Shown: positions 2,251 to 50,972 of the stretch, piece after piece
Layout: each line of letters starts with the position of its first letter
Numbering within the stretch: the first letter of the stretch is position 1
Origin: a virus
Taxonomy: Duplodnaviria > Caudoviricetes
Strand: one strand, 5' to 3'
DNA length: 64,000 bases
IMG/VR virus record: IMGVR_UViG_3300044627_003892
The notes under the pieces: generated by a model
Seen by the model: the letters and a program-made list of their open reading frames with translations, nothing else
What the model was told of the DNA's origin: nothing
The model's database searches: none
Program-made: the position numbers and the translations under genes

Positions 2251-2298
2251 TAGTTGAATTTAAGAACAAATTCATTTAATTTTAATAAAAACTATTTT

Positions 2299-7762: not shown

Positions 7763-7790
7763 ATATTTTTTTTGTATATTTATAAATATT

Positions 7791-9872: not shown

Positions 9873-10367
9873 ATGAATATGAATGGAGTATTAGTTCTTA
9901 ATTCAGATTATAGTCCCTTAAATGTAACATCGTTTAATCGTGGGTTTAATTTAGTCTATAAAGGAAAGGCAGAGGTTGTTAAATCATCTGACGAGCCTGT
10001 CGTATGTGGTATTATAAAACTTGTTAGACCCGTTATTATTAGACTTTTAAACTACGTTTCAATCACTCGTAGACGTATTCGTGTTAATCGTCATAGAATC
10101 ATGAGACGTGACCATAATGCTTGTGTTTATTGTGGAAACAAAAAAGACCTTACAATAGACCATATCGTCCCTAAATCGAAAGGTGGGGGTAATACATGGG
10201 ATAACCTAGTTACGTGTTGTATAACGTGTAATTCGAAGAAAGGGGATAAGTTATTGGGTGAGACTAATATGAAGTTAATGAAAAAACCCACAGAACCTAC
10301 TATATTTTCGGATTCTGTGGGTCAATCTTTACAAAAAGTTTGGACTGAATATCAAAAGTCTTTTTAA
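9873..10367 (+). CDS. HNH endonuclease (McrA-like)
   Basis: RDHNACVYCG...TIDHIVPKSKGG...WDNLVTCCITCNSKKG. Confidence 0.88.
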   Translation: MNMNGVLVLNSDYSPLNVTSFNRGFNLVYKGKAEVVKSSDEPVVCGIIKLVRPVIIRLLNYVSITRRRIRVNRHRIMRRDHNACVYCGNKKDLTIDHIVPKSKGGGNTWDNLVTCCITCNSKKGDKLLGETNMKLMKKPTEPTIFSDSVGQSLQKVWTEYQKSF

Positions 10368-11872: not shown

Positions 11873-11889
11873 ATATTATAAATACTTAA

Positions 11890-14370
11890 TTAAGGTTTAA
11901 ATGTTTGTTTTCCATCATCCCAAACATATGTAACTTGAGTTCCGTCAGGTTTTGTAATAATACCTGTACCCTCCTCTGTATTATATTCACCAACTTTATA
12001 ACCTTTATCAATAGTAAATTCACTATCTAACGCAAATTTTGCCCATCCAAGGTCGTCGTCACTGTATTTTCCTTTTAGACTTCTTTCACCTTGTCTTTGT
12101 TTTCTTTTATTTTTTAAACATTCAAACATATTAGCTGCAGGGTCCTTACCATTATCACTATTATAACAGTATTCAGTTCTTAATACATTATCATACTTAT
12201 CTTTTGTATTAATAATTTCTTGTTCTAAGTTTTCAATAAAATTTTGTCGAATAGCCTCACTACCCCCACCAAACAATCCCTCATTATATATTCTTTTTAA
12301 ATATACTTGAAGTTCATCTATATAAGTACCTGTTATAACTCCACCCATTTCTAAAATTCCTTCAATCGGAGTTGGTCGAAATGAATCCCTTATTTGTTCA
12401 TCACTTAAAGGTGTTTTAACTTCTGAGATTACTTTACTTAATTCCGCACATTCTTCATCAGTTCCAATTTTTTCATATGTAACACCTTCATTAACAATTG
12501 GTTCACATAATAATTTTTGAATTTTTTCAAATTCTATAACCATTTGTATCTTTGCATCATTCCTTCTTGTACCCTCAATAAAACTCATAACCCATGGAAA
12601 AACAGTCAATTTCCAAAAAAGTAATTTAACTCCCCTATCAAACCAAACTCCCTTAGTTCCCGCTAAACCTATAATACTTCTGTAGGTTTGAATACTGCTA
12701 GGGTCCATTGTTAAAGCAAATCTTGTCCAACTTTTACCCAAATCGGCAAAAAGTAAAGCGGCATTTAGTGCCTTAGCTTCAGCACCTTCAGCTTTTATTA
12801 TGTCCCTCCATCTTTTTACATTTAAAATTAGTGACATTTCCCCGTAACCTCGAAACATTTGTGAGACTAATTTATCGAAGTTTTCTTGGAAATCGTTACC
12901 TAAATTTTCATATAATTCTTTAAACTCTTTACTTTCTAAGAATTTATTAAGTCTGGCATCGTCAATACCCGAATTTTTAAGTTCAGTTTCAAGCCAGTCT
13001 TTAGCACCTTTTTTACCTAAATCACTTTCTTGTAAGAGTACTACTAAATTTTTAATTGTATCTAAATTACCACCTATACCTTTATGATTAAGAATATTTT
13101 TTGCCATAATTTGTAGTTCCTTATTCAACAGGTTTTCAATGTCCTGAAGTGAACGTATTCTAAATGTCTTTAACATTCTATTTCCAAAATTCTCAATAAA
13201 ATATTTCACATACGCCGTACCTCTTGCACTACCAATTATTTTTAACTTAGGTAAAAGTACTTCATATAATATTTTCTTAACTTTTTGAGCGACAGTTTTA
13301 TCAGGGTAAACCTCAACCTGACTTGCCAATCTTATTATACTAGAAATTGATGTAAATTCTTTATTTAATCTATCACCTAATATTTTTAAATCAATCTCAG
13401 AAACTTCTTCGTCAAGTATTTCTCTCCAAGTTCGGTTTTTTGAGGTTTGTGACATAATTTCTCTCGAATATTTACCTAAATCAGGTAGTCCCTTTGTATT
13501 TATAGAACCTACTTTACTTAAGAAATTATCTAAATATTCTTTCATAAATTCTTCATTTCTTTTAAGAACTGGTAGTATTTTATTAAATAAAGATTCAGAT
13601 AAGTCTTCTATATTATTTATTCTTCCAGAGACATAGTTTTTTAACTCTTCAAATTCTGATGATGTTACAGTAATTCCACCAGTATCAATATTTGTAGAGC
13701 CTCTCTTTGTGTCATACTTTGTTAAAAATAGTTCACTAATTTTTTCTTTTAAAATATTTTTATTTAATATAATATTCTTAGCAGTATCAGCGTTTAATGG
13801 TAACTCATTTAATTTATATGCGTCAATTAATAACTTTTTATACTCTTTATCAATATTTAATTCTTCAAGTCTTTTTTTAAGACTTCTTAATTGAGTTAAA
13901 ACATCATTATATAAATCATCGTCTTGAGTAGCAATGGTTGGTGTCAATTTTTTCAAAATCGATTCAGACTTAGTCGCCAATTCATCAAGCTCAGGGTAAA
14001 TCTCTTTTAAACTTTGTCTTATTGACGCTTTCATTTCTTGTTTTACCTGAGCATTAGAAGTTTTAAGTAACTCTTTAAACAATGTACTAAAAGGAATATC
14101 ATCTAAAACACTGTTACTCCAATCAGCAGCTCTAATTGCTGTTAATATATCTTGAAGTGTACGAGTTGTTACCTCACCACCAACCTTTGAAATACTTCGA
14201 GTAACTACATCACTTAGTGTTCTTGGGTCTATATTTTTTATAGCATCCACATCAAATAATCTTTTTAACAATTTTTGAGTTAAACTTGATGGTAAACTGT
14301 CTTCACTAATTATTTGAAGACCCATTATTTCTCTTACTCTGTTAATTTCACTTAAAATTTCTTTTTTCAT
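11890..14370 (-). CDS. Large helical hypothetical protein (possible virion/ejection protein)
   Basis: 826 aa; leader MKKEILSEINRVREIMGL; hydrophobic segment GVKLLFWKLTVFPWVMSF. Confidence 0.7.
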   Translation of the reverse strand: MKKEILSEINRVREIMGLQIISEDSLPSSLTQKLLKRLFDVDAIKNIDPRTLSDVVTRSISKVGGEVTTRTLQDILTAIRAADWSNSVLDDIPFSTLFKELLKTSNAQVKQEMKASIRQSLKEIYPELDELATKSESILKKLTPTIATQDDDLYNDVLTQLRSLKKRLEELNIDKEYKKLLIDAYKLNELPLNADTAKNIILNKNILKEKISELFLTKYDTKRGSTNIDTGGITVTSSEFEELKNYVSGRINNIEDLSESLFNKILPVLKRNEEFMKEYLDNFLSKVGSINTKGLPDLGKYSREIMSQTSKNRTWREILDEEVSEIDLKILGDRLNKEFTSISSIIRLASQVEVYPDKTVAQKVKKILYEVLLPKLKIIGSARGTAYVKYFIENFGNRMLKTFRIRSLQDIENLLNKELQIMAKNILNHKGIGGNLDTIKNLVVLLQESDLGKKGAKDWLETELKNSGIDDARLNKFLESKEFKELYENLGNDFQENFDKLVSQMFRGYGEMSLILNVKRWRDIIKAEGAEAKALNAALLFADLGKSWTRFALTMDPSSIQTYRSIIGLAGTKGVWFDRGVKLLFWKLTVFPWVMSFIEGTRRNDAKIQMVIEFEKIQKLLCEPIVNEGVTYEKIGTDEECAELSKVISEVKTPLSDEQIRDSFRPTPIEGILEMGGVITGTYIDELQVYLKRIYNEGLFGGGSEAIRQNFIENLEQEIINTKDKYDNVLRTEYCYNSDNGKDPAANMFECLKNKRKQRQGERSLKGKYSDDDLGWAKFALDSEFTIDKGYKVGEYNTEEGTGIITKPDGTQVTYVWDDGKQTFKP

Positions 14371-14382
14371 GTTAATAAATAT

Positions 14383-17370
14383 TTATTCATCAGCTTTAAT
14401 CGCTTCATTTTTAGCCGCTTCATCAAGCCTTCTTATTAAATCATCAGTTTTTTTAATTTCTTCTTTTACCTGTTGTACTGAAATTTGGTTTTTAATTTTT
14501 TCGAATTCTTCACCAAATATTTTTTTACCAACCGCATTTATAAAATCCTTACTCTCGTTGGGGTTATTTTTAAGTCTTTCATAAAGTGAATCGGCCTCTT
14601 CAGGAGTATCAACACCCCTATTTTTCATTTCCCATTCAAAGGCTTTCCATTTAGTTTCATCTAAAGGTACTTTAAATATATTTTGAGAAATCTGATTCGC
14701 ATAAATAAACATTTTATACCCCATATTCAACATGACTGGTGAAAAAATAATAGGTAGTTTTACACCAATCTCCCTAAATATTTTAACCGCAATATTTTTC
14801 CATTGGGAGCCAAATTGATTTTTTAACCATTTATCTAAAATATCTTTTCCATAAACCTGAACTTGTCTCATAAATCTTGGGGTATTTATGATATCATATA
14901 AATGTCTTCTTTCAGTCTTTGATAACGATGTCACAAAATTTCTCATTTTTGCGCCAGTATTCGGATTAGCATCTTTAAGCTTATTAAATACTGACAATTC
15001 AGCCCAATCACCAAATCCTGACAAGAATTTTTTCTCAAATCCCGGTGTGTCAACTATAAATGATAACATTGCAGATGCTAAATCAATTTTAGCCATCTCT
15101 TCATTTCCAGCTAATTTATTTCGATACGCTGAGTAAACATTTAATCCAATATCAACAGACATTCTCGACAAAATTGCCAATTCCAATGGAATACCTAAAG
15201 CTGAAAATGCTGGAGGAAACACCAACGATGCTAAAAGAACACCTCCCATAGTAATTTTCCATCCGTGTTCATCCCACCATTCATCAGGACAAGGAATGGT
15301 ATAATTAACATAACCTGATGGTAATGAAGAATAATATTGACCAACAATATAACCTTTAAACTCTCTTTGTCCTGAGGCAATTGTTTTTAACTCCTTATTC
15401 ATACCAGGACAATCCTTAAGTAATTTTTTTATTGTTGATTCAACCACTGAATCTGTTATGTCGTCAATCGGGTAATCTCCAGTGTCAGTTGTTCCAGCAT
15501 ATAATGAACTCATAATACCCAACTGTGAACCAGGATTTTTAGAAATATGCATTTTAACAGCATTTTTAACCAAAGGACTATTCAAATAAAAATCTTTCGA
15601 ACCAGGTGCCCCTGGTAAATAAGTTTGAATTAAATCGTAATCTTCAGGATAAAATTGAAGGAGTAAATCTATTTGGTCTTCAGGTAATTTTAAAAACTTA
15701 ATCATCCATTTACCAACATCACCATTAGTTTCTTTGTTAGCAAAATCTACAACACAATTAGGATATAGTGATTCGTTTTCCAACGTATGTTTCATAAAAT
15801 CAGGAAAACTAGAAAACAAATCATTATCAAAATTAAGACCTCTTCCTCCTTCAGTTACAATTTTTCTTCCGTATTTAACTCCATTTACCTCAACAGGTTC
15901 TGTACACCATTCTGATAACCAATCAACTAAAGTTTTAACTTGTTCATCGGTTAAAATACTAAATACAGGACCTAAATTAATTGTTTGTGGAGGAAGTTCA
16001 AACCCCTCACTTTCTAAAGAATATGTCGGTAAATCAGAGTCATCACCTCTACTGTAAATAGGTATTACTTTACCATTAACATCATAAATACTTATTTTCA
16101 AAAACTTGGAGTCTTTAACACTTTTTTCAAACTTTTCTTTTTTATCTTTTTGGGTGTCACCTTTTTCAGATAAAACATCATCAGGTGGAATGTTCGAATA
16201 CGCATTGGCTCTCAACCAACTTAACATTAAATCGGAAATTTGATTATAACCGGAAATATCTTCCGAACCAACACTCCAAGTTCCTGAACTTGACTTATTA
16301 ACCAATGACTTTATAATATTATTAATATCATTTTCTTTATTTGGATTAGTTTCATCAAAACCCATCTCATATCCAAATTTGTAATTTCCGTCATTAATAT
16401 AATCAGACAAAACTTTATGCCATTTATAAGTTTTACCCCAAGTATATGGAGGTTTAACAACATCCTTATCTGACATAAGGCCTAATTGTACTAATGCGTA
16501 TTGAATATCTAAAATCTTATTCCCATATTCTGGATATCCTTTTTCAGTGTATCCTTTTAATCCTTGTTGTTCTTGTTTTTCTTTAGTTACAAATTGTGAT
16601 GGAGAGTACTGATATTGTATTAGACTAGATAATTTAAATTTATCAATTAAATCTTTCCAATTTGGTTGTATTGGTGGTTGGTAATTAAAACTTTTTGGAT
16701 TTTTATTATATTGTTTTAATTTTTTTTCCCAAACTTCGTAATCAACTAATAAAATTAATGGACCATACTTATCCACATTATATTTAAAATCTTTTACTTC
16801 TGTTGGAGTTGATATTGTGTTATCTTTAAAGCTTAAACTAGATTTAAATACTTTTGGATTTTTATTAATTAAGTTTTTTAACTCTTCTAAAGATAACTGT
16901 GAAACTTTTTCAGCAAAAACAGTTATGATATTGTCTTTACTTGTACCCGCACTAACTCGAGCCTCACCTTTACCAGTGTTAGATTCATATAATTTAATTA
17001 ATTGCTCAATTGAGTATTTTCTAAGGGTTTCTTTGGTTAAAACTTGTGGTTTTGATGTTGTTTGTGGATTTGGATTGTTAATTGATGGAGTTTTAGAATA
17101 AAATGATGGGTAGTTTGATTGTAAACTATTACAAAATTTATCAACACTTTCCTTATTTTTTGGTGCAAATCCTGACCATGTGTAATTTCTTGGTTGCATT
17201 TTACAATTTGTAATTGCGTCCTTATAAACGGGATTTTTTGGGACTCTATTTGGGTCCGGTTGTTCCGATAATATTTTAACCTTAGAAATATTTTCAGACA
17301 AGGTTTCTTTATTATCGTATTTCATCAATAACAAAACCCTCTCTAATAATTCTTTTTGATTCTTTTCCAT
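14383..17370 (-). CDS. Large hypothetical protein with TM segments (possible virion/ejection protein)
   Basis: 995 aa; hydrophobic stretch ITMGGVLLASLVFPPAFSALGIPLELAIL. Confidence 0.7.
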   Translation of the reverse strand: MEKNQKELLERVLLLMKYDNKETLSENISKVKILSEQPDPNRVPKNPVYKDAITNCKMQPRNYTWSGFAPKNKESVDKFCNSLQSNYPSFYSKTPSINNPNPQTTSKPQVLTKETLRKYSIEQLIKLYESNTGKGEARVSAGTSKDNIITVFAEKVSQLSLEELKNLINKNPKVFKSSLSFKDNTISTPTEVKDFKYNVDKYGPLILLVDYEVWEKKLKQYNKNPKSFNYQPPIQPNWKDLIDKFKLSSLIQYQYSPSQFVTKEKQEQQGLKGYTEKGYPEYGNKILDIQYALVQLGLMSDKDVVKPPYTWGKTYKWHKVLSDYINDGNYKFGYEMGFDETNPNKENDINNIIKSLVNKSSSGTWSVGSEDISGYNQISDLMLSWLRANAYSNIPPDDVLSEKGDTQKDKKEKFEKSVKDSKFLKISIYDVNGKVIPIYSRGDDSDLPTYSLESEGFELPPQTINLGPVFSILTDEQVKTLVDWLSEWCTEPVEVNGVKYGRKIVTEGGRGLNFDNDLFSSFPDFMKHTLENESLYPNCVVDFANKETNGDVGKWMIKFLKLPEDQIDLLLQFYPEDYDLIQTYLPGAPGSKDFYLNSPLVKNAVKMHISKNPGSQLGIMSSLYAGTTDTGDYPIDDITDSVVESTIKKLLKDCPGMNKELKTIASGQREFKGYIVGQYYSSLPSGYVNYTIPCPDEWWDEHGWKITMGGVLLASLVFPPAFSALGIPLELAILSRMSVDIGLNVYSAYRNKLAGNEEMAKIDLASAMLSFIVDTPGFEKKFLSGFGDWAELSVFNKLKDANPNTGAKMRNFVTSLSKTERRHLYDIINTPRFMRQVQVYGKDILDKWLKNQFGSQWKNIAVKIFREIGVKLPIIFSPVMLNMGYKMFIYANQISQNIFKVPLDETKWKAFEWEMKNRGVDTPEEADSLYERLKNNPNESKDFINAVGKKIFGEEFEKIKNQISVQQVKEEIKKTDDLIRRLDEAAKNEAIKADE

Positions 17371-24507: not shown

Positions 24508-25206
24508 ATGAAAGAATTATTAAATAACCCTGAAACTATAAAAAATTTTAAACTTTTACATTATATCCTATTAAGTAATGGTCTTACTCGTGTCAGTAAT
24601 GACTTTTATGTTGATTACGACGGGAATGTTGATTATCACTTCTCACCTTGGACTAATAAAGGTGGAGCTTATGATATTATACCTAATAAATTATTTGATT
24701 TTTTAGATAATTTTTTTGACACTATTAAAGATGAAGTTTTAGATTCATTAGAAGGTGATGGTGATTCTAGAGCAACGGTGTCATGTGAGTATTCAACAAC
24801 AGACAAAACTTTAATAATTGAAGAAAATATTCAAACTATGGGTTATGAATCATATTACCAAGAGTTTGAAATTGACGAAAAGGAATTACTTGAAGATATG
24901 GTTCAGTGGAAAGAAGATGGTAAACTTAAAATTAGTGTTAATTTTAGCGGTGATGGTGATTCAGGTTATATTGATGACGTTGGTCTAATCAATGATAGTG
25001 ATGACAAACATTATGAATTTACAGCGGTTTGGGAAAATAAGTTATACAACATTTTGGAACAAAATCATGGTGGATGGGAAATAAATGAAGGCTCTGAGGG
25101 AACATTTATAATTAACAATGAAAACCAAACTATAGAACTAGATTTTCGTATGAATGTTGAAGAATCCTCAACAGGTTACGAATTTAAACACCAATTTGAG
25201 TTTTAA
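24508..25206 (+). CDS. Acidic protein with duplicated GDGDS motif (DUF6878-like)
   Basis: EGDGDSRATV and FSGDGDSGYID; directly follows the DUF6915-like gene. Confidence 0.55.
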   Translation: MKELLNNPETIKNFKLLHYILLSNGLTRVSNDFYVDYDGNVDYHFSPWTNKGGAYDIIPNKLFDFLDNFFDTIKDEVLDSLEGDGDSRATVSCEYSTTDKTLIIEENIQTMGYESYYQEFEIDEKELLEDMVQWKEDGKLKISVNFSGDGDSGYIDDVGLINDSDDKHYEFTAVWENKLYNILEQNHGGWEINEGSEGTFIINNENQTIELDFRMNVEESSTGYEFKHQFEF

Positions 25207-25520
25207 TAAACCTGAATAGTTCTTTGTGGTCTGTCGTCACCAAAGTCAGGACAGAAATAGGTATTATTACCATCGTGGTAAATTGTTCCACCAACTCCAT
25301 TAGGAATTTTGTGTTTTTCATGGAATTTTTCATCCAAATCTATTTGGTAATTCCCATCATGAATTAAAAAACATAAATTTTCATAACCACACTTATATTG
25401 TTGGTCTTTGTTTTTATGTCTCATAAATTCGTCAAAAGACATTACATATCTCGCATCTTCGTTAATGTGTCTTTTAACGATGTATTCTAATTGACTTTCT
25501 GTAATAATAAACTTTTTCAT
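25203..25520 (-). CDS. Hypothetical protein with MKKFIITESQL leader
   Basis: 105 aa. Confidence 0.7.
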   Translation of the reverse strand: MKKFIITESQLEYIVKRHINEDARYVMSFDEFMRHKNKDQQYKCGYENLCFLIHDGNYQIDLDEKFHEKHKIPNGVGGTIYHDGNNTYFCPDFGDDRPQRTIQVY

Positions 25521-25534
25521 ATCTTATAAATATA

Positions 25535-27196
25535 TCAAACAATTGGTTTATAAAATTTATGATTTCCGATTGTTGTAGTGTATTTTAATTTGGAATAATC
25601 CCAACTTGGTTTAATTGACGTTGTATGGTAAAATTCAGCACCTTTTGTATTATCAGTACCTTTCTTTTTAATATAATTTTTAACAAGGTTTTGAGCGGTT
25701 TCCCAAGCGGAACCATCCTTAGGGTTTTTTAAAATAGATTTATTTATCTTATTTAAAAAATTATCAGTAGTTGTATCATTCCAAATTGAAAATTGTTTTT
25801 TTTGTAAAACAACATCTTTTGGCGATTTTTTTAGACTATCTGCTCTATTTCTAATAACATTTGCAACTGCTTTCATTCCTTCAGAACCTTCTCCTCTAGC
25901 CTCCCCCCATATGGTTGCGGCAACAATTAAATCATCTTTAGTTAAATTGTCTTTTTCTATTGGTTTTATTGTTTTTACCATTTTCTTAGCGCCGTCAATA
26001 ACACCTTCTTTTGATTTATCACTAGCACCCGTCAACTTGTTAACGTCATCCCAAAAAGTATCTGAGTTTTGATTTTGTTTTATACCCATAATTTTATTCA
26101 CATCATCAAAAACTGATTGTTCGTTAACATTTGGTTTTAAAACCGTCATTGCTTCAGGAAAATCTTTATTTAAAACATCTTCGTCTTTATTATCGTAAGG
26201 AATATTTTGTAAAACGTATCTAATTGAATTTAAACCTGAAATTTTCTTATCATTAGAATCTAAAACAACCCAAGGGTGGTTAACTGTTGATGTCTTATCA
26301 AAAAGTTTTTGTTTATACTCTGTGAACTTTTCCCATACATCTTGCATCTTTTCATCATTCTCAGAATACTTCCAATATTTCAATGGTGACTTTTGTCTGA
26401 AATCAAATCTTTTAGCCTGAGTTTCTTTATCTATTGAGAACCAAAGTTTAAATAGATAATCACCATCAACAACCAATGATTCTTCAAAGTCCTGAACATT
26501 ATCCATAAAGTCCTCATACTCTTCTGAAGAACCGTAACCCATTACAGGTTCAACTAAACCTCTATTATACCAACTTCTATCAAAGAAGTTTATCTTACCT
26601 TTCTCAATTTGATTTCTGTATCTATCCCACCAGTTTTTTCTTTCGTCAGGTGTCGGAATGCCAAGAGCAATAACTTTATAATATCTTGGATTTAAGTTTT
26701 CAGTAAACTTTTTAATTGTTGAACCTTTACCTGCTGAATCTCTCCCTTCAAAAACAATAATAACAGTTTTACCTGTTTGTTTTAACCATTCTTGTAATTT
26801 TAAAAGTTCAACCTGTAAGAAAAATATTTCTTTCTTGTAAATGTCTTTATCTAAAATTGACGGTTCCTCTTCGGGACTAACAACTTCTTTTTTAGTTTTT
26901 CTTTTTTCTAATGACTTAGTTAGTTGTTTAAAAAATTCAAAAACATTAATATCCTTATTACCTTTTAATTTCAAAGTTTTTAAAATACCTCTTGTAAGTA
27001 ATCCAAAATCAACTAACCCTTCTTTTGAATATTCTTCAATCTTATTAATAAATTTTTGAATTTGAGCACTATATACTTTGTTGTCTTTTAAAATTGCAAC
27101 GAGAGATTTAACCTCAGGGCTATACTTTGGTTTGTCAGCTTCTGTCAAACCCATATTATTTTTTATCTTACTAACTTCAGTTAATAAATTCCTCAT
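25535..27196 (-). CDS. ppk2: Polyphosphate kinase 2 fused to a C-terminal SleB/CwlJ-like cell-wall hydrolase
   Basis: FEGRDSAGKG Walker A, FFDRSWYNR, PWVVLDSNDKK; C-terminal IWGEARGE...AVANVIRNR...KQFS...FYH...IGNHKFY. Confidence 0.88.
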   Translation of the reverse strand: MRNLLTEVSKIKNNMGLTEADKPKYSPEVKSLVAILKDNKVYSAQIQKFINKIEEYSKEGLVDFGLLTRGILKTLKLKGNKDINVFEFFKQLTKSLEKRKTKKEVVSPEEEPSILDKDIYKKEIFFLQVELLKLQEWLKQTGKTVIIVFEGRDSAGKGSTIKKFTENLNPRYYKVIALGIPTPDERKNWWDRYRNQIEKGKINFFDRSWYNRGLVEPVMGYGSSEEYEDFMDNVQDFEESLVVDGDYLFKLWFSIDKETQAKRFDFRQKSPLKYWKYSENDEKMQDVWEKFTEYKQKLFDKTSTVNHPWVVLDSNDKKISGLNSIRYVLQNIPYDNKDEDVLNKDFPEAMTVLKPNVNEQSVFDDVNKIMGIKQNQNSDTFWDDVNKLTGASDKSKEGVIDGAKKMVKTIKPIEKDNLTKDDLIVAATIWGEARGEGSEGMKAVANVIRNRADSLKKSPKDVVLQKKQFSIWNDTTTDNFLNKINKSILKNPKDGSAWETAQNLVKNYIKKKGTDNTKGAEFYHTTSIKPSWDYSKLKYTTTIGNHKFYKPIV

Positions 27197-27244
27197 ACTG
27201 ATAAATACTTTTTAATAAGTATTTTGTAAATTAATATAAACCAC

Positions 27245-27272
27245 AAATCCCCTCATTAGAGGGGATTTTTTT
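27245..27272 (-). terminator. Intrinsic terminator
   Basis: AAATCCCCTC-ATTA-GAGGGGATTT. Confidence 0.75.
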
Positions 27273-27435
27273 ATTCTTTAATCTCTTTCATCAACTTACC
27301 CCACAAGACTGTCTGTAATAGGATAAGACCAACACTTAAAACAAATACAGGTAATGATGGTGAGTTAATCATTAATACAACTGATAATACAAGAGCGAAC
27401 ATTGCTGAAGTCAATTTTAGTTTTAAGTTTTTCAT
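27271..27435 (-). CDS. Small two-TM membrane protein
   Basis: Start moved to 27435 (MKNLKLKL); TATATTTG promoter at 27461-68 on the minus strand. Confidence 0.6.
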   Translation of the reverse strand: MKNLKLKLTSAMFALVLSVVLMINSPSLPVFVLSVGLILLQTVLWGKLMKEIKE

Positions 27436-27514: not shown

Positions 27515-27949
27515 TTAACGTCTTCTAATGTGTCTTCTGATACTCTCAGCCATTGGGTCTCTTGGTTCTTCATCTTGCATGTCACCCATAGGAGTTTCCA
27601 TACCTGTAAAATTTTCATCAGAATCATAAGAATTATATTCTTCTTCATCTGAATTCATTTGATTACTTTCGTAATCTTGGATGATAGACTTAAGTTCCAT
27701 TGCCTCTTGTTCTTTTCCTTCAGTATTTCTTAATTGACTATAAAAATCTTTAATATAGTCCCATCCTGCAATACCTAAAAGTGCAATAGTTGTTCCAACC
27801 ATTGTTGCAATTGCTCCACCAGTACTCATGGCTTCAGGATTAAAGAAGTTTTCAACATCTTCATTAACTCTATTTCTTTTAGTTTCTTTAACTACTGTTT
27901 TAATTAATCTAGTTAATTCTGATTCTGATAATCTTACAACTTTTTTCAT
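27515..27949 (-). CDS. Hypothetical protein with MKKVVRLSESEL leader and one TM helix
   Basis: 144 aa. Confidence 0.7.
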   Translation of the reverse strand: MKKVVRLSESELTRLIKTVVKETKRNRVNEDVENFFNPEAMSTGGAIATMVGTTIALLGIAGWDYIKDFYSQLRNTEGKEQEAMELKSIIQDYESNQMNSDEEEYNSYDSDENFTGMETPMGDMQDEEPRDPMAESIRRHIRRR

Positions 27950-27983: not shown

Positions 27984-29033
27984 TTATTTTTCCCAATATT
28001 TTGTACCACAAAGTCCTAACCATCTTTGCATCACATCATATAATTCTTCAGATTCATATACCATCCCTAATTTTATACCCTTAGGTAGTTTTGCGGTTTC
28101 CACTGGTTCAGGTTCTTTAGTTAATGTAACAACAACAGGACCTGTAGGCTTTGATATTAATGGAACACTACTTTTTAAATATCCATTTAACTTAACTATT
28201 AATTTTGTAGAATCAGAAATATATAACGGATTAAAATCTAAAAGGATTTCATAACCACCTATTTCAGTTAAATTTTTATTTATATCAACTTTACTATTAA
28301 TTGCTGTGTCATCATCAACAATAATCCTTATATTATCTAAAACATCGTCAGTAATTTCTATTAGTTCTTTAGTTTGGGAATCTTTTAATTGTAACTTAAC
28401 TTGAATATAATTTTCAAATTTAATAGTTTTAAAAATTTTATCTATTTCTATTGTTTCCCCTTCTTTTTTTTCTAAATTAAAAACTTTTCGTGAAATTTCA
28501 TTACCAACATTAACTAATGTTTTATACGTATCATAATCAAATTTAAAAATTCCATTATCATCAGTATAAACTTCTTTTGAGCTATCATCTTTTTTGTTTG
28601 TAAGAATAACTTTTAAATTACCTATTGGTTTTTTTGATTTTGAATCAATAACCTGTATTTTTGCCATTTTTGTGGCGGTAATTGCAACAGTGTTCAATTC
28701 ACTACCTTGTTTTAAAATAACTTCAACAGATGTTTTTGAATTATCAATAGTAACTGTTTGTGTTTCGAAACCTACAAAGGCAATTGTTATTTTATCTCCA
28801 CTAAAATTTTTTAATACAACATTACCATTTGTATCAGTTGCTCCGTTTACTTTATTAGCGTTATCAGGGTCGTAAACCGTTGCACCAACAATTAATTCTC
28901 CTTTATTATCCTTTACAGTTACAGTTAAATTTCTAGGAGTCGACTCGTTTAAAAAAATCCTTTTATTAATTTTTGAATTTAATTCTAAAATCCTATTAGT
29001 TTCTTCAGATAGTAATTCAAATTTTGTCTTCAT
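27984..29033 (-). CDS. Protein with CarboxypepD_reg-like (SusC N-terminal extension-type) beta-sandwich repeats
   Basis: VTVKDNKGELIVGATV...ATDTNGNVVL...ITIAFVGFETQTV...VILKQGSELNTVAITA. Confidence 0.7.
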   Translation of the reverse strand: MKTKFELLSEETNRILELNSKINKRIFLNESTPRNLTVTVKDNKGELIVGATVYDPDNANKVNGATDTNGNVVLKNFSGDKITIAFVGFETQTVTIDNSKTSVEVILKQGSELNTVAITATKMAKIQVIDSKSKKPIGNLKVILTNKKDDSSKEVYTDDNGIFKFDYDTYKTLVNVGNEISRKVFNLEKKEGETIEIDKIFKTIKFENYIQVKLQLKDSQTKELIEITDDVLDNIRIIVDDDTAINSKVDINKNLTEIGGYEILLDFNPLYISDSTKLIVKLNGYLKSSVPLISKPTGPVVVTLTKEPEPVETAKLPKGIKLGMVYESEELYDVMQRWLGLCGTKYWEK

Positions 29034-29611
29034 TTTGTCATCCCCCTTTTAAAGTTTTGAATTCCCTGTCTAACATTTTGAATTCCTTGTTTAGCGTTTT
29101 GAACTTTTTCTTTAGTGTTTTGTGTAACGTCTTGAAATTTATTTTTAACGTTTCCAATACCTTGTTTAACATTATTTTTAAAACTTCCGTCTGAATCACT
29201 TTTTACTTTTGGGGTTTTTTGTTTTTTAACATCATTCTCGTCAAGTCCCTCATATTCCTTAAGTACAAAATCACCATAACTATTACAAATATATTCTAAA
29301 ATTGTTTGTTGTGACGGGTCACTTGTCTGACCCTTTACATATCCCTTTATAAGGGCGCTTGACCCTTTACTTGTCGCAATAAATTCTACATCCTGTACAA
29401 TAAATTGGAACGATTCTTTAGTTAAACCTCTTTTTTCAACAATTGTAAAAGTTCTGTTTTTCATACCAGGTATCTTTGGTCTGATTGAATTATCACCATA
29501 TAAAAACCTCTTAATTAATTCTTCAGGAGTTTTAGTTAATTTAGATTCTTCAGCAATAACCTTATTAACAATGTTAAAAATATCATTTTCGGTTAAATTA
29601 ATTCTTTTCAT
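29030..29611 (-). CDS. Hypothetical protein with MKRINLTENDI leader
   Basis: C-terminal KQGIQN(V/F) amphipathic repeats. Confidence 0.7.
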   Translation of the reverse strand: MKRINLTENDIFNIVNKVIAEESKLTKTPEELIKRFLYGDNSIRPKIPGMKNRTFTIVEKRGLTKESFQFIVQDVEFIATSKGSSALIKGYVKGQTSDPSQQTILEYICNSYGDFVLKEYEGLDENDVKKQKTPKVKSDSDGSFKNNVKQGIGNVKNKFQDVTQNTKEKVQNAKQGIQNVRQGIQNFKRGMTK

Positions 29612-36903: not shown

Positions 36904-37281
36904 TTATAAATATTTTTTAATTACATTAACCTTAAATGGTCCCAAAGGATTTGGGAAGTTTTCTTTTACTTGAGAAGGGTAACTGTATTCTAAAAAATAT
37001 ACTTTTTCACCATCAGTTATAAATCTTATTGGTGCTGGACCTTTATTTACGTTTTCAAAAAATACTATCATATCAGGTTCATAGTTAAAGAATTTTGTAG
37101 CTTCTTTAATTTCTCCATACATTTTTTGGTCTGTAAAAGCAAAATCTCTCCAATTTTGTTTCATTTTATAACCTTTTTTTCTTAACTCATCGTAAAAACC
37201 AGGATTTTGTGGTTGCTCAAGAATTACTCTTTTAACCAATCTTACTAAATCTGACTCAGTTAATCTTACTACTTTTTTCAT
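36904..37281 (-). CDS. Hypothetical protein with MKKVVRLTESDL leader
   Basis: 125 aa. Confidence 0.7.
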   Translation of the reverse strand: MKKVVRLTESDLVRLVKRVILEQPQNPGFYDELRKKGYKMKQNWRDFAFTDQKMYGEIKEATKFFNYEPDMIVFFENVNKGPAPIRFITDGEKVYFLEYSYPSQVKENFPNPLGPFKVNVIKKYL

Positions 37282-37320
37282 GATAATGTTTTATTATAAA
37301 TACATTATAAAACAAAAAAA

Positions 37321-37824
37321 TTACTCTTCTTCGTCAAGATATCTACCAAGATTAACAGGTTCCACAAATGTTCCCTCAAGTTCGGACATTTCTTTCTTAT
37401 ACTCCTCTAAAGTTTCAACTGAATAGATGGGAGCAAATAATGGACGACGATTAAATGGAACATTATCTCGGTTTTCCCATTCCTCCAATTCTTTTTCTAT
37501 ATTAGGAATTTGTCGTTTTACATATGAATATTTGTACCATTTCTCGTAGTCCTCACGTGTGGGAACGAATTTAACGTCACCATAGTTATAAATATTCAAA
37601 TCAGGGTTGTTTGTGTAAACATTAAGAATACCCTCATCACCATCATACTGATTACATAACTCTTGAAGAGTATATGGGTTTGTTATACCTTTATCTTCCC
37701 AACTTCTTCCATAGGAATGAATTTTACAGATATAAAAATATCCGTCTTCAAAAGAATAGATTTCACTATTAATCTTGTCTTTCAATTCAACAAGTTGTTC
37801 TATTGTGTAATTAGATAAATCCAT
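37321..37824 (-). CDS. Hypothetical protein
   Basis: Start moved to 37824; TATATTTG promoter immediately upstream. Confidence 0.7.
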   Translation of the reverse strand: MDLSNYTIEQLVELKDKINSEIYSFEDGYFYICKIHSYGRSWEDKGITNPYTLQELCNQYDGDEGILNVYTNNPDLNIYNYGDVKFVPTREDYEKWYKYSYVKRQIPNIEKELEEWENRDNVPFNRRPLFAPIYSVETLEEYKKEMSELEGTFVEPVNLGRYLDEEE

Positions 37825-37842
37825 GGGACAAATATAAAACAA

Positions 37843-37873
37843 AAAACCCCATCAAACAAATGAATGGGGTTTT
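37843..37873 (-). terminator. Intrinsic terminator
   Basis: AAAACCCCAT-N11-ATGGGGTTTT. Confidence 0.7.
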
Positions 37874-37892
37874 AAAATTATAATATTTATTT

Positions 37893-38309
37893 TTACATTT
37901 GATTTCTTAGTTTATCTTCAAGACCTCTTAAATCGTCTCTTTTTGTTGTATAAACTCCGAATCCTTTATCATCGTCTTGATTCGCTCCGAAACCTTTTTT
38001 CAATTTACTCAATATCAAATTTCCAACAACTTCAGGTTTTTCCATGATAAAATTAGCCAAGTCAATTAATTCATCATTTCCTTTTTCTGAAAATTCAAAA
38101 CTAGACAAGATATCATCAAGTATTCTATTAATTTGTCTCGATTCTGTTTTAGTTGCAGTTTCGTCCTCTTTTAAAAATAATTTTACATCTCCCGACTTGG
38201 TGTTAATCAATTTTGAAAAGTTTTCTGTAACAACATTCATTCCCCCTGTATGTTGACCACGTATGGAGTTCTTTTCTTCCTCCGTTAAGTTATTTAATAA
38301 ATGTTTCAT
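37893..38309 (-). CDS. Hypothetical protein with MKHLLNNLTEEEKNSI leader
   Basis: 138 aa. Confidence 0.7.
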   Translation of the reverse strand: MKHLLNNLTEEEKNSIRGQHTGGMNVVTENFSKLINTKSGDVKLFLKEDETATKTESRQINRILDDILSSFEFSEKGNDELIDLANFIMEKPEVVGNLILSKLKKGFGANQDDDKGFGVYTTKRDDLRGLEDKLRNQM

Positions 38310-38392
38310 AATTTGTTTGTTTACTATAAATATATCGTTAAATAAAAAACCCCACTTTGTGGGTAGGGTTAATATAATATTAAAAATTATAA

Positions 38393-38869
38393 TTATGGAA
38401 TAAGTAAAGTAGAAACTTTAGGTAAATTTAATTTTGATAAGATTGGTAACCCAACAATCAATCCTAAAATTGCAACCATCTCCGAAAGTATCAGTCTTCT
38501 TTCTTCTTTTGTAAAAACTTTACCAGTTGTTTCTAACTCTTCTAACTTTTTATTCAATAATTCGGCTCTTCGTTTTAAGTTATTTATTTGTTTTTCATCA
38601 ATCTTACCTTTAACTTTATCAATTGTTCGATTAATTAATAACCTCAGTTTGTTTTTCATAGAAATTAAAGTTGTTTTTATTTGTTCTTTTTTTTCTTCAA
38701 AATTTTCTTTTCTAACCATAGAAATTTGGTCACGGAATTGCTCAATGTCCTTTTTTAACATGTATTTTTCATCTTCTGAAAACAATCCGTCATCTGGTAC
38801 TTGTTCAGAAATTACTCTTTTAACTAATCTTATCAAATCTGATTCTGTTAATCTTATAACTTTTTTCAT
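38393..38869 (-). CDS. Coiled-coil protein with MKKVIRLTESDL leader and C-terminal TM helix
   Basis: 158 aa. Confidence 0.7.
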   Translation of the reverse strand: MKKVIRLTESDLIRLVKRVISEQVPDDGLFSEDEKYMLKKDIEQFRDQISMVRKENFEEKKEQIKTTLISMKNKLRLLINRTIDKVKGKIDEKQINNLKRRAELLNKKLEELETTGKVFTKEERRLILSEMVAILGLIVGLPILSKLNLPKVSTLLIP

Positions 38870-38903
38870 AATATTTTAATTTATATATAAATATATCAAC
38901 TTT

Positions 38904-39215
38904 TTAAAATTCCATGTTAATTCTCTTAATTTCTATTCCAAACTTATCGGAATAATATTTTTCAATACCTTCACCCACCGAATTTCCAAATAAAACACGC
39001 ATCTTTTCAAAAAAAGAATAATCAATCCATAATGTCCCGTGATTATTTCTGTGGGCAATTCTTACAGAGTGACCATTACTATCAACGTCTCTCCTACTAA
39101 AGAAATGAATATACCCATCATCTTTGTCAATGTTCATTTCAACATCACCATAGGTAGCATCCATGTACTTCTTAATAACCTCATTTAACTTACTTTCGGT
39201 AATAATATACTTCAT
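38904..39215 (-). CDS. Hypothetical protein with MKYIITESKL leader
   Basis: 103 aa. Confidence 0.7.
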   Translation of the reverse strand: MKYIITESKLNEVIKKYMDATYGDVEMNIDKDDGYIHFFSRRDVDSNGHSVRIAHRNNHGTLWIDYSFFEKMRVLFGNSVGEGIEKYYSDKFGIEIKRINMEF

Positions 39216-39242
39216 ATTACAATAAATACCTTATAAATAAAA

Positions 39243-39266
39243 AACCCCTCTTTATAGGAGGGGTTA
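39243..39266 (-). terminator. Intrinsic terminator
   Basis: AACCCCTC-N8-GAGGGGTT preceded by an A-tract. Confidence 0.7.
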
Positions 39267-39283
39267 ATCATCTAATAATAAAT

Positions 39284-39589
39284 TTATTTCATTTTTTCCC
39301 AAACCGCCTTACAAAAATTGGTTTCTCCGATATCAATCTTAATTGCAGTAACATAACCCTTTCCTCTTGCAATGTTACCTGTTTGTGATTGACAAGTCAT
39401 TTTATCAACACTTGATGGTGTTTTAATAAGACATATTTGGTTTTCAGGGTCAGTTAAATTTGATTTACACCATGTATCTTCTTCAGCCTTTTTTTCGATA
39501 ATTGCCTCAGATAATAATGGTCTTACATCACCAATGGTTGATTCCATTAAATTGAAAAATCTGTTTTTGTATTGTTCTATATTGTTCAT
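39284..39589 (-). CDS. Hypothetical protein with MNNIEQYKNRF leader
   Basis: Start moved to 39589; Cys-containing C-terminal domain. Confidence 0.7.
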   Translation of the reverse strand: MNNIEQYKNRFFNLMESTIGDVRPLLSEAIIEKKAEEDTWCKSNLTDPENQICLIKTPSSVDKMTCQSQTGNIARGKGYVTAIKIDIGETNFCKAVWEKMK

Positions 39590-39611
39590 AATAATAAATA
39601 TATCATAAAAT

Positions 39612-39650
39612 AAAAAAGGGGTAGGGGGGATTGGGACAACGGGAAAAAAA
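39612..39650 (+). repeat. G-tract intergenic element, copy 1 of 3
   Basis: AAAAAA-GGGG-TA-GGGGGG-ATT-GGG-ACAAC-GGG-AAAAAAA. Confidence 0.85.
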
Positions 39651-39654
39651 TATT

Positions 39655-39966
39655 TTATACAAAAATAACATCCCACACCGCAGTGGAATCTCCGTTTTTG
39701 TCTTTAGGAAATAATAATGTAAACATGGTTCCAATCTTTTCTTCAATATCTGAACCCTCATCATAAGCGTGATAACTACGACCACCTGTATTTAGTATAA
39801 TTTGATATACAGGATATGTATCATTTCTAAATTTCCAATTTTTTGTTTTTATCTCAACATCACCATTAAACCATTCGTATTCAGATAATAAGTTCTCAAC
39901 ATAATCCTTTAAGAAATTAACTTTCCTCATTTGTAAATTCTGAGACTCGGTGATAATGTATTTCAT
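39655..39966 (-). CDS. Hypothetical protein with MKYIITESQ leader
   Basis: 103 aa. Confidence 0.7.
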   Translation of the reverse strand: MKYIITESQNLQMRKVNFLKDYVENLLSEYEWFNGDVEIKTKNWKFRNDTYPVYQIILNTGGRSYHAYDEGSDIEEKIGTMFTLLFPKDKNGDSTAVWDVIFV

Positions 39967-39979
39967 ATTCTACCTAATA

Positions 39980-40687
39980 TTATTTAGCCCTTTTCACCCT
40001 TTTTTCAGGAGGTCTTACAAATTTAATATTATTTATTTCTTCCCAGTTCTCAATAAATTGTCTTGCAACTGTTTCAGGAATTCGTTTATCCATTAAATGT
40101 TTAATTGCGTCTTGAATTAATGTGTTTCTTGGGTCATCAAAATTTTTCAATTCAGAGTCAACCAATTTAGCCATTCTTGAATCTTTTAATTTTTTAGGTA
40201 GTGGTTTAGTACCAATCTTATGTGGTATTCTTGTTAATAAGTTTGTTCCTACTAATGCGGCGGTAATTATACCAGCAACCATTGCGCTATCAATGTCTTG
40301 GTGTTGTGGATTCAAGGTATTAATAGTAACCGCTCCTGTCATAAGAGACAATACTGTAGTTGCAAATCGTGTGATTATTTTTGTAAGCTCAAGTTTATTT
40401 TTTTCAGCTTCGGTATCAACAGTAATACCCCTTCTAGAAAAACCTATTGATTCACTAACCGTATCACCTTCAATAACACTATCAACAACATCTTCAGCAA
40501 CGTCTTTAAATTCATCTTCCCCAATAGAGTTATATAGTTTACCAAGAGTTAATAAATCTTCTTTTGATATGTTATTAAGAATTATATTGGTTACCTCGTC
40601 AGTTATTTGTTGTTCCTCGTTTTCACGAATAATACGTTTAACAATTCTTGTCAAATCAGATTCAGTTAATCTTACAATCTTTTTCAT
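39980..40687 (-). CDS. Membrane protein with MKKIVRLTESDL leader
   Basis: Two TM helices; start moved to 40687. Confidence 0.7.
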   Translation of the reverse strand: MKKIVRLTESDLTRIVKRIIRENEEQQITDEVTNIILNNISKEDLLTLGKLYNSIGEDEFKDVAEDVVDSVIEGDTVSESIGFSRRGITVDTEAEKNKLELTKIITRFATTVLSLMTGAVTINTLNPQHQDIDSAMVAGIITAALVGTNLLTRIPHKIGTKPLPKKLKDSRMAKLVDSELKNFDDPRNTLIQDAIKHLMDKRIPETVARQFIENWEEINNIKFVRPPEKRVKRAK

Positions 40688-40710
40688 ATTACAATAAATA
40701 TATACCAAAT

Positions 40711-40736
40711 AAAAAACCCCTCACATCGGAGGGGTT
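40711..40736 (-). terminator. Intrinsic terminator
   Basis: AAAAAACCCCTC-ACATCG-GAGGGGTT. Confidence 0.75.
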
Positions 40737-40759
40737 GTATAATTTAATATTGTTTTACA

Positions 40760-41140
40760 TCACCAACGTCTTGGATTAAACCATCCGAGATGTCTACCGG
40801 TTTCCTTAAAGCTTTGACGATTATCATCTTCTTCTTCATCTTCTTTACCAAGAAGGACATAATTCAACTCGTCAAGAACTGTATATTTATCAACCTCCTC
40901 ATCATTAACATTCAAAAAGATATCACGTCCAAGATATTTCATCAACGGGGTACCTCCTTCAACATGCTCATTATATAACTCAATAATACTCTGTGGTGAA
41001 GCCGTTTCACCAACTTTATTTCTAACACCCTTAAATCCGGCAGATATGAAAATATCTTTTTCTTCATACCTATTTTCCTTAACAACTCTTTTAACTATTT
41101 TAACCAAATCTGATTCAGTTAATGTTATAACTTTTTTCAT
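40760..41140 (-). CDS. Hypothetical protein with MKKVITLTESDL leader
   Basis: 126 aa. Confidence 0.7.
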   Translation of the reverse strand: MKKVITLTESDLVKIVKRVVKENRYEEKDIFISAGFKGVRNKVGETASPQSIIELYNEHVEGGTPLMKYLGRDIFLNVNDEEVDKYTVLDELNYVLLGKEDEEEDDNRQSFKETGRHLGWFNPRRW

Positions 41141-49538: not shown

Positions 49539-49646
49539 AATAATAACTATTAAAAACAACCTCAAACCATATTATCATATTCTTATTAAATTATTAACCC
49601 AATATGTATTGTTCAATTTTATGTGTATCTTTGTATTTATTATAAT

Positions 49647-50314: not shown

Positions 50315-50327
50315 TAGTTAACGAAGA

Positions 50328-50606: not shown

Positions 50607-50609
50607 TCT

Positions 50610-50939: not shown

Positions 50940-50972
50940 ATTATTATAAATATGATTATATTTATATTCTAT

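What the first reader, a model, noticed from the sequence alone, without database searches (positions are those of the whole stretch)
25535..27196. PPK2 fused to a SleB-like cell-wall hydrolase, behind a leader peptide
One ORF carries an intact class I/II PPK2 and a SleB/CwlJ-type lytic transglycosylase (catalytic GEAR Glu). They are joined by a linker with an internal duplication (FDDVNKIMG / WDDVNKLTG), and the N-terminus is a leader-type segment. I know of no such fusion in bacteria. Inference: a virion-delivered protein coupling wall penetration to polyP-driven NTP regeneration, or a polyprotein cleaved at Glu sites (VNEQ).
Basis: partly seen in the sequence, partly recalled or inferred. 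Interest (0 to 1): 0.62.

Follow-up and report, generated by a model that had tools for sequence, protein, structure and literature searches.

The report
Leader-tagged PPK2–cell-wall-lysin phage cargo protein
A giant T4-like lake phage encodes one protein joining a polyphosphate-driven nucleotide kinase to a cell-wall-cutting enzyme, behind a short address tag, and comparison with relatives suggests (no experiment yet) that it is packed into the phage head, cut into two enzymes and delivered to the next host with the DNA.

Summary
ORF 25535-27196 (-) encodes 553 aa: a 19-aa leader, a basic helical N-domain, an intact class-I-like PPK2, a disordered linker and a SleB-type hydrolase with its catalytic Glu (E432).

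It is not a chimera. The same fusion recurs in more than 10 independent assemblies and in 59%-identical orthologues.

Relatives at this locus keep the leader and the KPN(I/V)NE|Q joint but swap the lysin. Four unrelated muralytic families occur. Some relatives drop the lysin, and others drop PPK2, leaving leader plus SleB only. In other large contigs the PPK2 module sits inside 1000-1900-aa proteins whose modules are permuted and bordered by (L/I)-N-E.

The nearest relative (about 90% nt identity, colinear) has a T4-type head module, including a Peptidase_S77 prohead protease. T4's version of this protease cuts after L/I-x-E.

Best reading (about 0.6): a capsid-targeted precursor that the head protease trims and splits, so that both enzymes are ejected with the DNA. 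Main rival (about 0.25): a cytoplasmic late or lysis protein. A conserved 54-aa two-TM, holin-like gene lies directly upstream.

All of this rests on sequence comparison. This scan has already reached the same reading for PPK2-GH24 fusions on other DNA. I rate it a new variant of a known kind (T4 CTS cargo, polyvalent proteins).

The parts
25535..27196 (-). Whole ORF, 553 aa (stop codon at 25535-25537)
27140..27196 (-). Leader, residues 1-19: an amphipathic helix ending in G-L17-T-E19|A, the predicted first prohead-protease site
   Evidence: AF2 gives a helix at 2-14 and a break at 16-21. L17 and E19 are invariant and residue 18 varies among close orthologues. In 26 of 28 non-redundant leaders the first Glu after the helix has a hydrophobic P3 residue.
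26861..27139 (-). Basic helical N-domain, residues 20-112 (pI 9.5). It is found only attached to this phage PPK2 clade.
   Evidence: pLDDT 80-89; pI; only 22 hits among 1.84 billion representatives, all of those examined being PPK2 fragments or orthologues
26132..26860 (-). PPK2 domain, residues 113-355. Walker A GRDSAGKGS at 151-159 and Walker B FDRSWYNR at 205-212.
26117..26131 (-). Module joint N356-V-N-E359|Q360, the predicted second protease site
   Evidence: All fusions have (I/V)-x-E-(Q/S) here, and many PPK2-only forms end at or within a few residues of this joint, e.g. P0060 at ...KPKVN. The same (L/I)-N-E motif borders modules in the giant relatives.
25937..26116 (-). Disordered linker, residues 361-420, with two copies of an aromatic-DDVNK-x-x-G motif (363-371 and 382-390)
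   Evidence: pLDDT 23-40; motif positions
25538..25936 (-). SleB/CwlJ-type Hydrolase_2 domain, residues 421-553. The catalytic Glu E432 is encoded at 25901-25903.
27201..27207 (-). TATTTAT promoter-like motif, 4 nt upstream of the ATG
   Evidence: Sequence. The motif lies within 35 nt upstream of 38/101 window genes, against 10/101 for its reverse complement. It also precedes the terminase, portal, protease and scaffold genes of G001.
27245..27268 (-). Terminator-like hairpin separating the gene from the upstream gene
27271..27435 (-). Conserved 54-aa two-TM protein directly upstream: a holin-like candidate with no family match

Best explanation
The gene encodes a modular precursor of capsid-internal, ejected cargo in a T4-related jumbo phage of about 290 kb, probably infecting Bacteroidota.

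Inferred steps:
1. The 19-aa amphipathic leader acts like T4's capsid-targeting sequence and brings the precursor into the prohead core.
2. The phage's T4-type (Peptidase_S77) prohead protease removes the leader after L17-T-E19.
3. The same protease cuts the joint after V357-N-E359. This releases a 40-kDa basic N-domain plus PPK2 unit and a 22-kDa linker plus SleB-type lytic transglycosylase.
4. Both products are ejected with the DNA.
5. The lysin helps to breach peptidoglycan at entry.
6. PPK2 uses host polyphosphate to phosphorylate NDPs to NTPs before any phage gene is expressed.

Shown here: domain identities, intact catalytic motifs, recurrence of the fusion, the modular swaps, the conserved motifs, and the T4-type protease in the nearest relative.

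Inferred only: packaging, cleavage, ejection and substrates.
For: (1) Phage type. G001 is about 90% nt identical to the window and colinear with it. It has Peptidase_S77 (93 bits) and Gp23 (216 bits), plus ORFs in the order terminase, portal, protease, acidic scaffold-like protein, Gp23. I named the terminase, portal and scaffold by position, size and sequence, not by a family search. Its protease keeps the LNHP and SSRG motifs of T4 gp21. T4 gp21 cuts after L/I-x-E, a 10-aa CTS loads diverse internal proteins, and Alt is an injected enzyme (PMC9026906, PMC3012670).

(2) Leader. L17 and E19 are invariant while residue 18 is T, Q, E, N or D. In 26 of 28 leaders below 60% identity, the first Glu after the helix has a hydrophobic P3 residue. 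Other Glu residues in the same proteins do so 33% of the time (Fisher p = 1e-10, not corrected for phylogeny).

(3) The leader is portable.
- The same leader sits on an unrelated 826-aa ORF (11890-14370) and on a 502-aa ORF of G001.
- At the syntenic locus of L048-L050 it is joined directly to KPNINEQ plus linker plus SleB, without PPK2.
- The closest stand-alone SleB relatives whose N-termini I read carry short amphipathic leaders ending in Phi-x-E, of four types. These include the LTESEL type seen on many ORFs in this window.

(4) The joint is a module border.
- Among the 120 best relatives the C-terminal modules are: PF00959 in 46, PF07486 in 12, PF18013 in 6, other in 7, none in 49.
- A fourth lysin type, and the PF18013 module, match tape-measure or injection-transglycosylase PHROGs.
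- In 1000-1900-aa relatives the N-domain plus PPK2 unit is bordered by INE|G and LNE|Q or LNE|E. Module order is permuted between P0242 and P0236. A block of P0235 that contains PG_binding_1 and has no counterpart in P0236 is flanked by LNE on both sides.

(5) A leaderless 200-aa Amidase_2 in G001 is available as the ordinary endolysin.

(6) Leader-bearing genes lie in islands that have no nucleotide match between the window and G001, resembling T4's variable IP loci.

(7) The upstream TATTTAT motif is shared with head genes.
Against: - There are no proteomic, biochemical or expression data.
- Phi-x-E is a short motif.
- The leader has no demonstrable homology to T4's CTS.
- The protease was seen in the relative G001, not in this window. 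The window's own assembly is not held.
- I know of no myovirus that carries a peptidoglycan hydrolase inside the head. Head proteins ejected through the tail would be expected to reach the cytoplasm, and the linker has no export signal.
- A conserved 54-aa two-TM, holin-like gene lies about 75 nt upstream.
- The SleB and GH24 modules match PHROG 'endolysin' families.
- TATTTAT also precedes a DnaB-like helicase gene, so late timing is not shown.
- Dozens of small ORFs carry related N-termini, which may mean the tag has another role.
Confidence: 0.6

Rival explanations
1. It is a cytoplasmic late protein that serves as the phage's endolysin, or one of them, within a lysis cassette. PPK2 is merely co-translated with it as an auxiliary metabolic module. 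The N-terminal segment is not a packaging tag. It could be regulatory, or a recombination or translation-initiation cassette shared by paralogues.
For: - A conserved 54-aa two-TM protein lies directly upstream in all relatives with this locus, including the leader-SleB forms.
- A 144-aa protein with a leader-type N-terminus and, by my reading of its sequence, one hydrophobic segment lies upstream of that.
- The SleB domain hits phrog_938 'endolysin' and the GH24 module hits phrog_7 'endolysin'.
- Endolysin genes are known to be mosaic (established knowledge).
Against: - Neither small membrane protein matches a holin family.
- G001 has a separate leaderless Amidase_2, translationally coupled to a protein that, by my reading, begins with a hydrophobic segment.
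- An endolysin needs no cleavable amphipathic leader or 60-aa disordered linker.
- This reading does not explain why the same leaders sit on unrelated large proteins.
- It also does not explain why PPK2 is a bordered module in permuted giant proteins.
Confidence: 0.25
2. It is a tail- or baseplate-associated entry lysin (a virion-associated peptidoglycan hydrolase) that carries PPK2 along. The leader and linker motifs would be docking elements for the tail rather than for the prohead core.
For: Two of the swapped-in lysin types match tape-measure or 'tail injection transglycosylase' PHROGs. No PF00959 lysozyme other than the fusion was found in G001, so a gp5-type tail lysozyme of that family was not seen.
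Against: - In T4, cleavage after L/I-x-E is described for head proteins, made by the prohead protease (PMC9026906).
- The gene is not among recognisable tail genes. The sheath and baseplate-wedge genes lie elsewhere in G001.
- The leader family is shared with many non-tail ORFs.
Confidence: 0.1
3. It is an assembly chimera, or a lineage-specific lost stop codon, with no function as a fusion.
For: None was found. PPK2-only forms ending at or near the joint do exist.
Against: The fusion recurs at 81-100% identity in at least 10 clusters from four data sources, and at 59% identity with the same architecture. Both domains keep their catalytic motifs.
Confidence: 0.02

Closest known systems
Phage T4 internal proteins IPI-III and Alt (capsid-targeting sequence, gp21 processing, ejection with DNA)
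   Same: - A short N-terminal propeptide ending in L/I-x-E.
- A T4-type S77 protease in the lineage.
- Unrelated cargo proteins that share only the tag.
- Location in hypervariable loci.
- An enzyme (Alt) delivered with the DNA (PMC9026906, PMC3012670).
   Different: - The leader is longer (about 19 aa, against 10 in T4) and not detectably homologous.
- The cargo is a PPK2 plus a muralytic enzyme joined in one precursor with an internal site.
- Many more genes carry tags.
- Nothing has been shown experimentally.
Polyvalent proteins of phages and conjugative elements (Iyer et al. 2017, PMC5512222)
   Same: - One polypeptide combines disparate enzymatic domains.
- These include lysozyme and, rarely, PF07486 domains, and nucleotide-metabolism domains.
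- The proteins are proposed to be delivered with the invading DNA and processed into units.
   Different: - That paper does not mention polyphosphate or PPK2 (0 occurrences).
- Processing there is ascribed to an in-built zincin-like peptidase domain. None was detected here, and the sites fit the prohead protease instead.
Internal virion proteins with lysin domains of podoviruses (T7 gp16, phiKMV gp36); from my own knowledge, not tested here
   Same: A peptidoglycan-cleaving domain carried inside the capsid and ejected at infection.
   Different: Those are large structural core proteins of short-tailed phages that form the ejection channel. This phage is a T4-like myovirus, and the lysin is a small swappable module.
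Cellular class I PPK2 (F. tularensis 4yeg, S. meliloti 3czq) and Bacillus SleB (4f55, 4fet)
   Same: PPK2 aligns over about 240 residues with conserved Walker A and B motifs. The SleB catalytic-domain fold and its Glu are present.
   Different: - PPK2 has an extra 93-aa basic N-domain found only in this phage clade.
- The lysin lacks SleB's N-terminal PG-binding domain and is only 24-25% identical to SleB.
- Neither family is otherwise known to me as fused to the other.

Membership tests
PPK2 (Pfam PF03976) | Profile match above the gathering score over the whole domain | tested here: met
   237.7 bits against a cut-off of 22.3; profile positions 2-227 of 229
PPK2 (Pfam PF03976) | Walker A (GxDxxGKG) and Walker B (DRS) motifs | tested here: met
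   GRDSAGKGS at 151-159 and FDRSWYNR at 205-212. They align to the same motifs of 4yeg and 3czp and are at least 90% conserved in 59 relatives.
PPK2 class I (polyP:NDP phosphotransferase) | A single PPK2 domain, closest to class I enzymes, with NDP to NTP activity | tested here: inconclusive
   There is a single domain. The match to class I 4yeg and 3czq is 203-223 bits, against 71-87 bits for AMP-phosphotransferase and class III structures. Substrate preference cannot be read from sequence.
Hydrolase_2 / SleB-CwlJ (Pfam PF07486) | Profile match and SleB catalytic-domain fold | tested here: met
   69.4 bits against a cut-off of 27. The family profile hits 4f55 at E 1.7e-18. The AF2 model has pLDDT 91, and its top Foldseek hits are 4fet and 4f55 with TM-score 0.72-0.73 normalised to the target.
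Hydrolase_2 / SleB-CwlJ (Pfam PF07486) | Catalytic Glu in the GE(A/S)RGE motif | tested here: met
   E432 is invariant in 63 sequences and aligns to the YGESRGE motif of 4f55. That this Glu is the catalytic residue is from my own knowledge of SleB.
T4-type CTS cargo (internal proteins, Alt) | A gp21-type (Peptidase_S77) prohead protease encoded by the phage | tested here: inconclusive
   It is present in G001, the nearest relative, which is about 90% nt identical and colinear. The window's own assembly is not held.
T4-type CTS cargo (internal proteins, Alt) | An N-terminal propeptide ending in L/I-x-E | tested here: met
   L17-T-E19, with L and E invariant. 26 of 28 non-redundant leaders fit the rule.
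T4-type CTS cargo (internal proteins, Alt) | Physical presence in the capsid, cleavage by the protease, and ejection | not testable with these tools
   Needs virion proteomics or biochemistry.
T4-type CTS cargo (internal proteins, Alt) | Sequence homology of the tag to T4's CTS | tested here: not met
   I saw no similarity between this 19-aa leader and the Alt, gp24, gp67 or gp68 N-termini read from the T4 record. The IP CTS itself was not fetched. The resemblance is one of shape and rule, not of homology.
Polyvalent proteins (Iyer et al. 2017) | Two or more disparate effector domains in one polypeptide, including a wall-attacking domain | tested here: met
   PPK2 plus PF07486. Relatives reach 1000-1900 aa with several blocks.
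Polyvalent proteins (Iyer et al. 2017) | An in-built zincin-like metallopeptidase for self-processing | tested here: not met
   Pfam and PHROGs found no peptidase domain in the protein.
Holin-dependent endolysin | Adjacent holin, and being the phage's lysis enzyme | tested here: inconclusive
   A 54-aa two-TM gene lies upstream but has no holin-family hit. G001 holds another candidate endolysin, a leaderless Amidase_2.

The most novel reading that the evidence does not exclude
T4-related jumbo and huge phages of Bacteroidota run a large tag-addressed capsid-cargo system. In it, enzymes are loaded as shuffled polyproteins and cut apart by the head protease. One standard cargo is a polyphosphate kinase 2, which is injected with the DNA and converts the host's polyphosphate store into NTPs before any phage gene is expressed. 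It travels next to swappable wall-degrading modules. This would be a protein-level 'energy starter kit', a mode of host takeover that I did not find described.
Probability: 0.45. Interest if true: 0.8.

Novelty: new variant of a known kind. Interest (0 to 1): 0.6.

Why it matters
If the reading holds, it matters in four ways.
- T4's small set of tag-addressed internal proteins would extend to a large, modular, protease-processed payload in environmental jumbo phages.
- A metabolic enzyme (PPK2) would join the list of proteins delivered with phage DNA.
- That would change how 'auxiliary metabolic genes' for phosphorus are read. The enzyme would act at minute zero, as a packaged protein, rather than after expression. 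This is relevant to P-limited lakes, where hosts store polyphosphate.
- It gives concrete, testable cleavage sites (E19|A20 and E359|Q360) and a natural panel of module swaps.

A portable capsid-loading tag would also be of practical use for loading foreign enzymes into phage heads.

Tried and rejected
- Assembly chimera or lost stop codon: rejected because the fusion recurs.
- Megablast of 20 kb against cultured phages found nothing.
- tblastn found no fusion in cultured phages. It found only separate PPK2 or SleB hits. The best PPK2 hits were in 630-735-kb uncultured phages.
- PHROGs and Pfam gave nothing for the large leader-bearing neighbours at 10364-17370 and for most small ones.
- TATTTAT as a strictly late promoter: not sustained, because it also precedes a DnaB-like helicase gene and is absent before the sheath gene.
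- A holin assignment for the 54-aa protein, or for the protein upstream of the G001 amidase: no family hit.
- I first read the window ORF 6791-7765 as an M15 peptidase. Pfam and PHROGs did not support this. It is only homologous, at 44%, to the N-terminal part of G001's leader-bearing Amidase_2 protein.
- A shared 'DDVNKI' docking motif between that protein and this linker: the registers differ, so I dropped it.
- The ESM Atlas gave no usable hit for the N-domain.
- MAFFT could not place T4's gp23 cleavage site on the G001 capsid protein.
Contexts therefore came from IMG/VR loci.
- Papers: no description of a PPK2-lysin fusion. PPK2 and polyphosphate are not mentioned in the huge-phage paper or the polyvalent-protein paper.

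Full report
**What is there.** The ORF 25535-27196 (-) encodes 553 aa.
- Pfam finds PPK2 at residues 115-338 (E 1.6e-70) and Hydrolase_2 (SleB/CwlJ) at residues 435-549 (E 4.6e-19).
- PPK2 aligns over about 240 residues to solved PPK2s: 3czp, 4yeg and 3czq at 203-245 bits, against 71-87 bits for AMP-phosphotransferase and class III entries. Walker A (GRDSAGKGS, 151-159) and Walker B (FDRSWYNR, 205-212) are conserved.
- A profile of the C-terminal domain hits the SleB catalytic domain 4f55 at E 1.7e-18.
- The AF2 model of that domain has pLDDT 91.3. Its only significant structural matches are SleB 4fet and 4f55.
- E432 of WGEARGE is invariant in 63 homologues.
- In the full-length model there is a helix at 2-14 and a low-confidence break at 16-21. 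A confident helical N-domain (27-101) and PPK2 follow. The linker 357-416 is disordered.

**Not an artefact.** Proteins 81-100% identical, with the same two domains, come from JGI, ENA, NCBI and Logan assemblies. Orthologues at 59% identity keep the architecture.

**What genome this is.**
- The window's own assembly is not held.
- The nearest record, G001 (240,759 bp, estimated 82% complete), is colinear with the window at about 90% nt identity.
- G001 has a T4-type head module. Family searches identified the Peptidase_S77 prohead protease and the Gp23 capsid protein. Beside them lie ORFs that I read as terminase, portal and acidic scaffold from their position, size and sequence.
- Its protease is about 28% identical to T4 gp21 and keeps the LNHP and SSRG motifs.
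- The closest cultured capsid protein is that of Flavobacterium phage immuto, at about 42%.
- In T4, gp21 cuts after L/I-x-E. A 10-residue capsid-targeting sequence (CTS) loads otherwise unrelated internal proteins. The enzyme Alt is injected with the DNA (PMC9026906, PMC3012670).

**The leader.**
- Among close orthologues L17 and E19 never change, while residue 18 is T, Q, E, N or D and residues 20-21 vary.
- I took 28 leaders below 60% identity. In 26 of them the first Glu after the helix has a hydrophobic residue two positions before it. Other Glu residues in the same proteins do so 33% of the time (p = 1e-10, not corrected for relatedness).
- The tag is portable. It heads an unrelated 826-aa ORF in this window and a 502-aa ORF in G001.
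- The closest stand-alone SleB relatives whose N-termini I read carry short amphipathic leaders ending in Phi-x-E, of four types. One is the '...RLTESEL..I..VISE|Q' type that also heads many small ORFs in this window.

**The joint.** Every fusion reads (I/V)-x-E-(Q/S) after '...LKP', and many PPK2-only forms stop at or within a few residues of it, for example P0060 at '...KPKVN'.
- The C-terminal modules of the 120 best relatives are: GH24 lysozyme in 46, SleB in 12, PF18013 in 6, other in 7, none in 49.
- Three of the 'other' group carry a fourth lysin type. That type, and the PF18013 module, match tape-measure or injection-transglycosylase PHROGs.
- At the fully syntenic locus of three contigs (flanking proteins mostly 75-99% identical), a 200-aa protein has the same 17-aa leader spliced directly to KPNINEQ plus linker plus SleB. 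PPK2 is precisely missing there.
- So the leader, PPK2 and the lysin are separable modules, and the breakpoints fall at the two Glu sites.

**Giant relatives.** The N-domain plus PPK2 unit is also embedded in 1000-1900-aa proteins. One of them has a PG_binding_1 domain.
- BLAST blocks show that module order is permuted between P0242 and P0236.
- P0235 has a block containing PG_binding_1 that has no counterpart in P0236.
- Every block border reads LNE|Q, LNE|E or INE|G.
- The N-domain occurs only with this PPK2 clade: 22 hits in 1.84 billion representatives.

**Context.**
- Leader-bearing genes sit in islands with no nucleotide match to G001.
- G001 also holds a leaderless 200-aa Amidase_2, which is a candidate ordinary endolysin. 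It holds a 553-aa Amidase_2 protein with a leader-like N-terminus as well.
- A TATTTAT motif lies 4 nt before the ATG. It is enriched upstream of genes and shared with head genes. It also precedes a DnaB-like helicase gene, so late timing is not established.

**Against the cargo reading.**
- A conserved 54-aa two-TM gene lies directly upstream. It is holin-like in shape but matches no holin family.
- The lysin modules match 'endolysin' PHROGs.
- I know of no myovirus head that carries a lysin.
- The linker has no export signal.
- Nothing here has been tested experimentally.

**Verdict.**
- About 0.6: a CTS-type, protease-processed capsid-cargo precursor that delivers PPK2 and a lysin.
- About 0.25: a cytoplasmic late or lysis protein.
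- About 0.1: a tail-associated lysin.
- About 0.02: an artefact.

The polyvalent-protein paper already describes lysozyme and PF07486 domains in delivered multidomain proteins, but not PPK2, and it proposes a different processing peptidase. I found no paper describing this fusion.

Earlier notes of this scan reached the same reading for PPK2-GH24 fusions in other genomes. I read them only after forming mine, and they are not independent evidence.

Noticed in passing
window 36904-41140 (-), 47796-53973 (+), 56018-58487 (-), 25203-25520 (-), 27515-27949 (-), 29030-29611 (-): Dozens of otherwise unrelated small ORFs start with one of a few conserved N-termini, most ending in Phi-x-E. The types are MKKVVRLTESDLvRiVKRVI.E, MKYLITESQL and MNLQEhIkRvLRE. 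The MKYLITE start resembles T4 Alt's MELITE.
   Followed up: partly
window 10364-17370 (-): Three large ORFs of 502, 826 and 995 aa have leader-type N-termini (MNLLDKHLLLE|E; MKKEILSEINRVREIMGLQIISE|D) and no Pfam or PHROG hit. The region has no nucleotide match in G001.
   Followed up: partly
window 27271-27435 (-): A 54-aa two-TM protein, 79-100% identical in all related loci, lies just upstream of the fusion gene. It is holin-like in shape but has no family hit.
   Followed up: partly
P0234-P0253 (other contigs; P0236 is on a 262-kb NCBI contig): Proteins of 1000-1900 aa contain the N-domain plus PPK2 unit among Cys-rich acidic and other blocks. Block order is permuted, every border reads (L/I)-N-E, and one protein has PG_binding_1.
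   Followed up: partly
G001 48773-50434 (L004:8773-10434); window 6791-7765 (-): G001 has a 553-aa protein with a leader-like N-terminus (..YIFE|E), an Amidase_2 domain and two roughly 75-aa repeats that each end QFESEQ. The window orthologue starts MNKINSHKEVISEIKKLRNVLLE|E and shares only the N-terminal 221 residues, at 44%.
   Followed up: partly
window-wide; e.g. 27201-27207 (-): A TATTTAT motif lies within 35 nt upstream of 38/101 predicted genes, against 10/101 for its reverse complement. In G001 the figures are 70/260 against 25/260. It is probably a phage promoter element.
   Followed up: partly
window 27984-29033 (-): A leader-bearing 349-aa protein has CarboxypepD_reg-like domains. 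Together with the 193-aa ORF 29030-29611, it is missing from the corresponding place in G001.
   Followed up: no
window 2254-4362 (+): A Clp-type AAA+ ATPase (phrog_4871 'ATP-dependent protease', E 3e-237).
   Followed up: no
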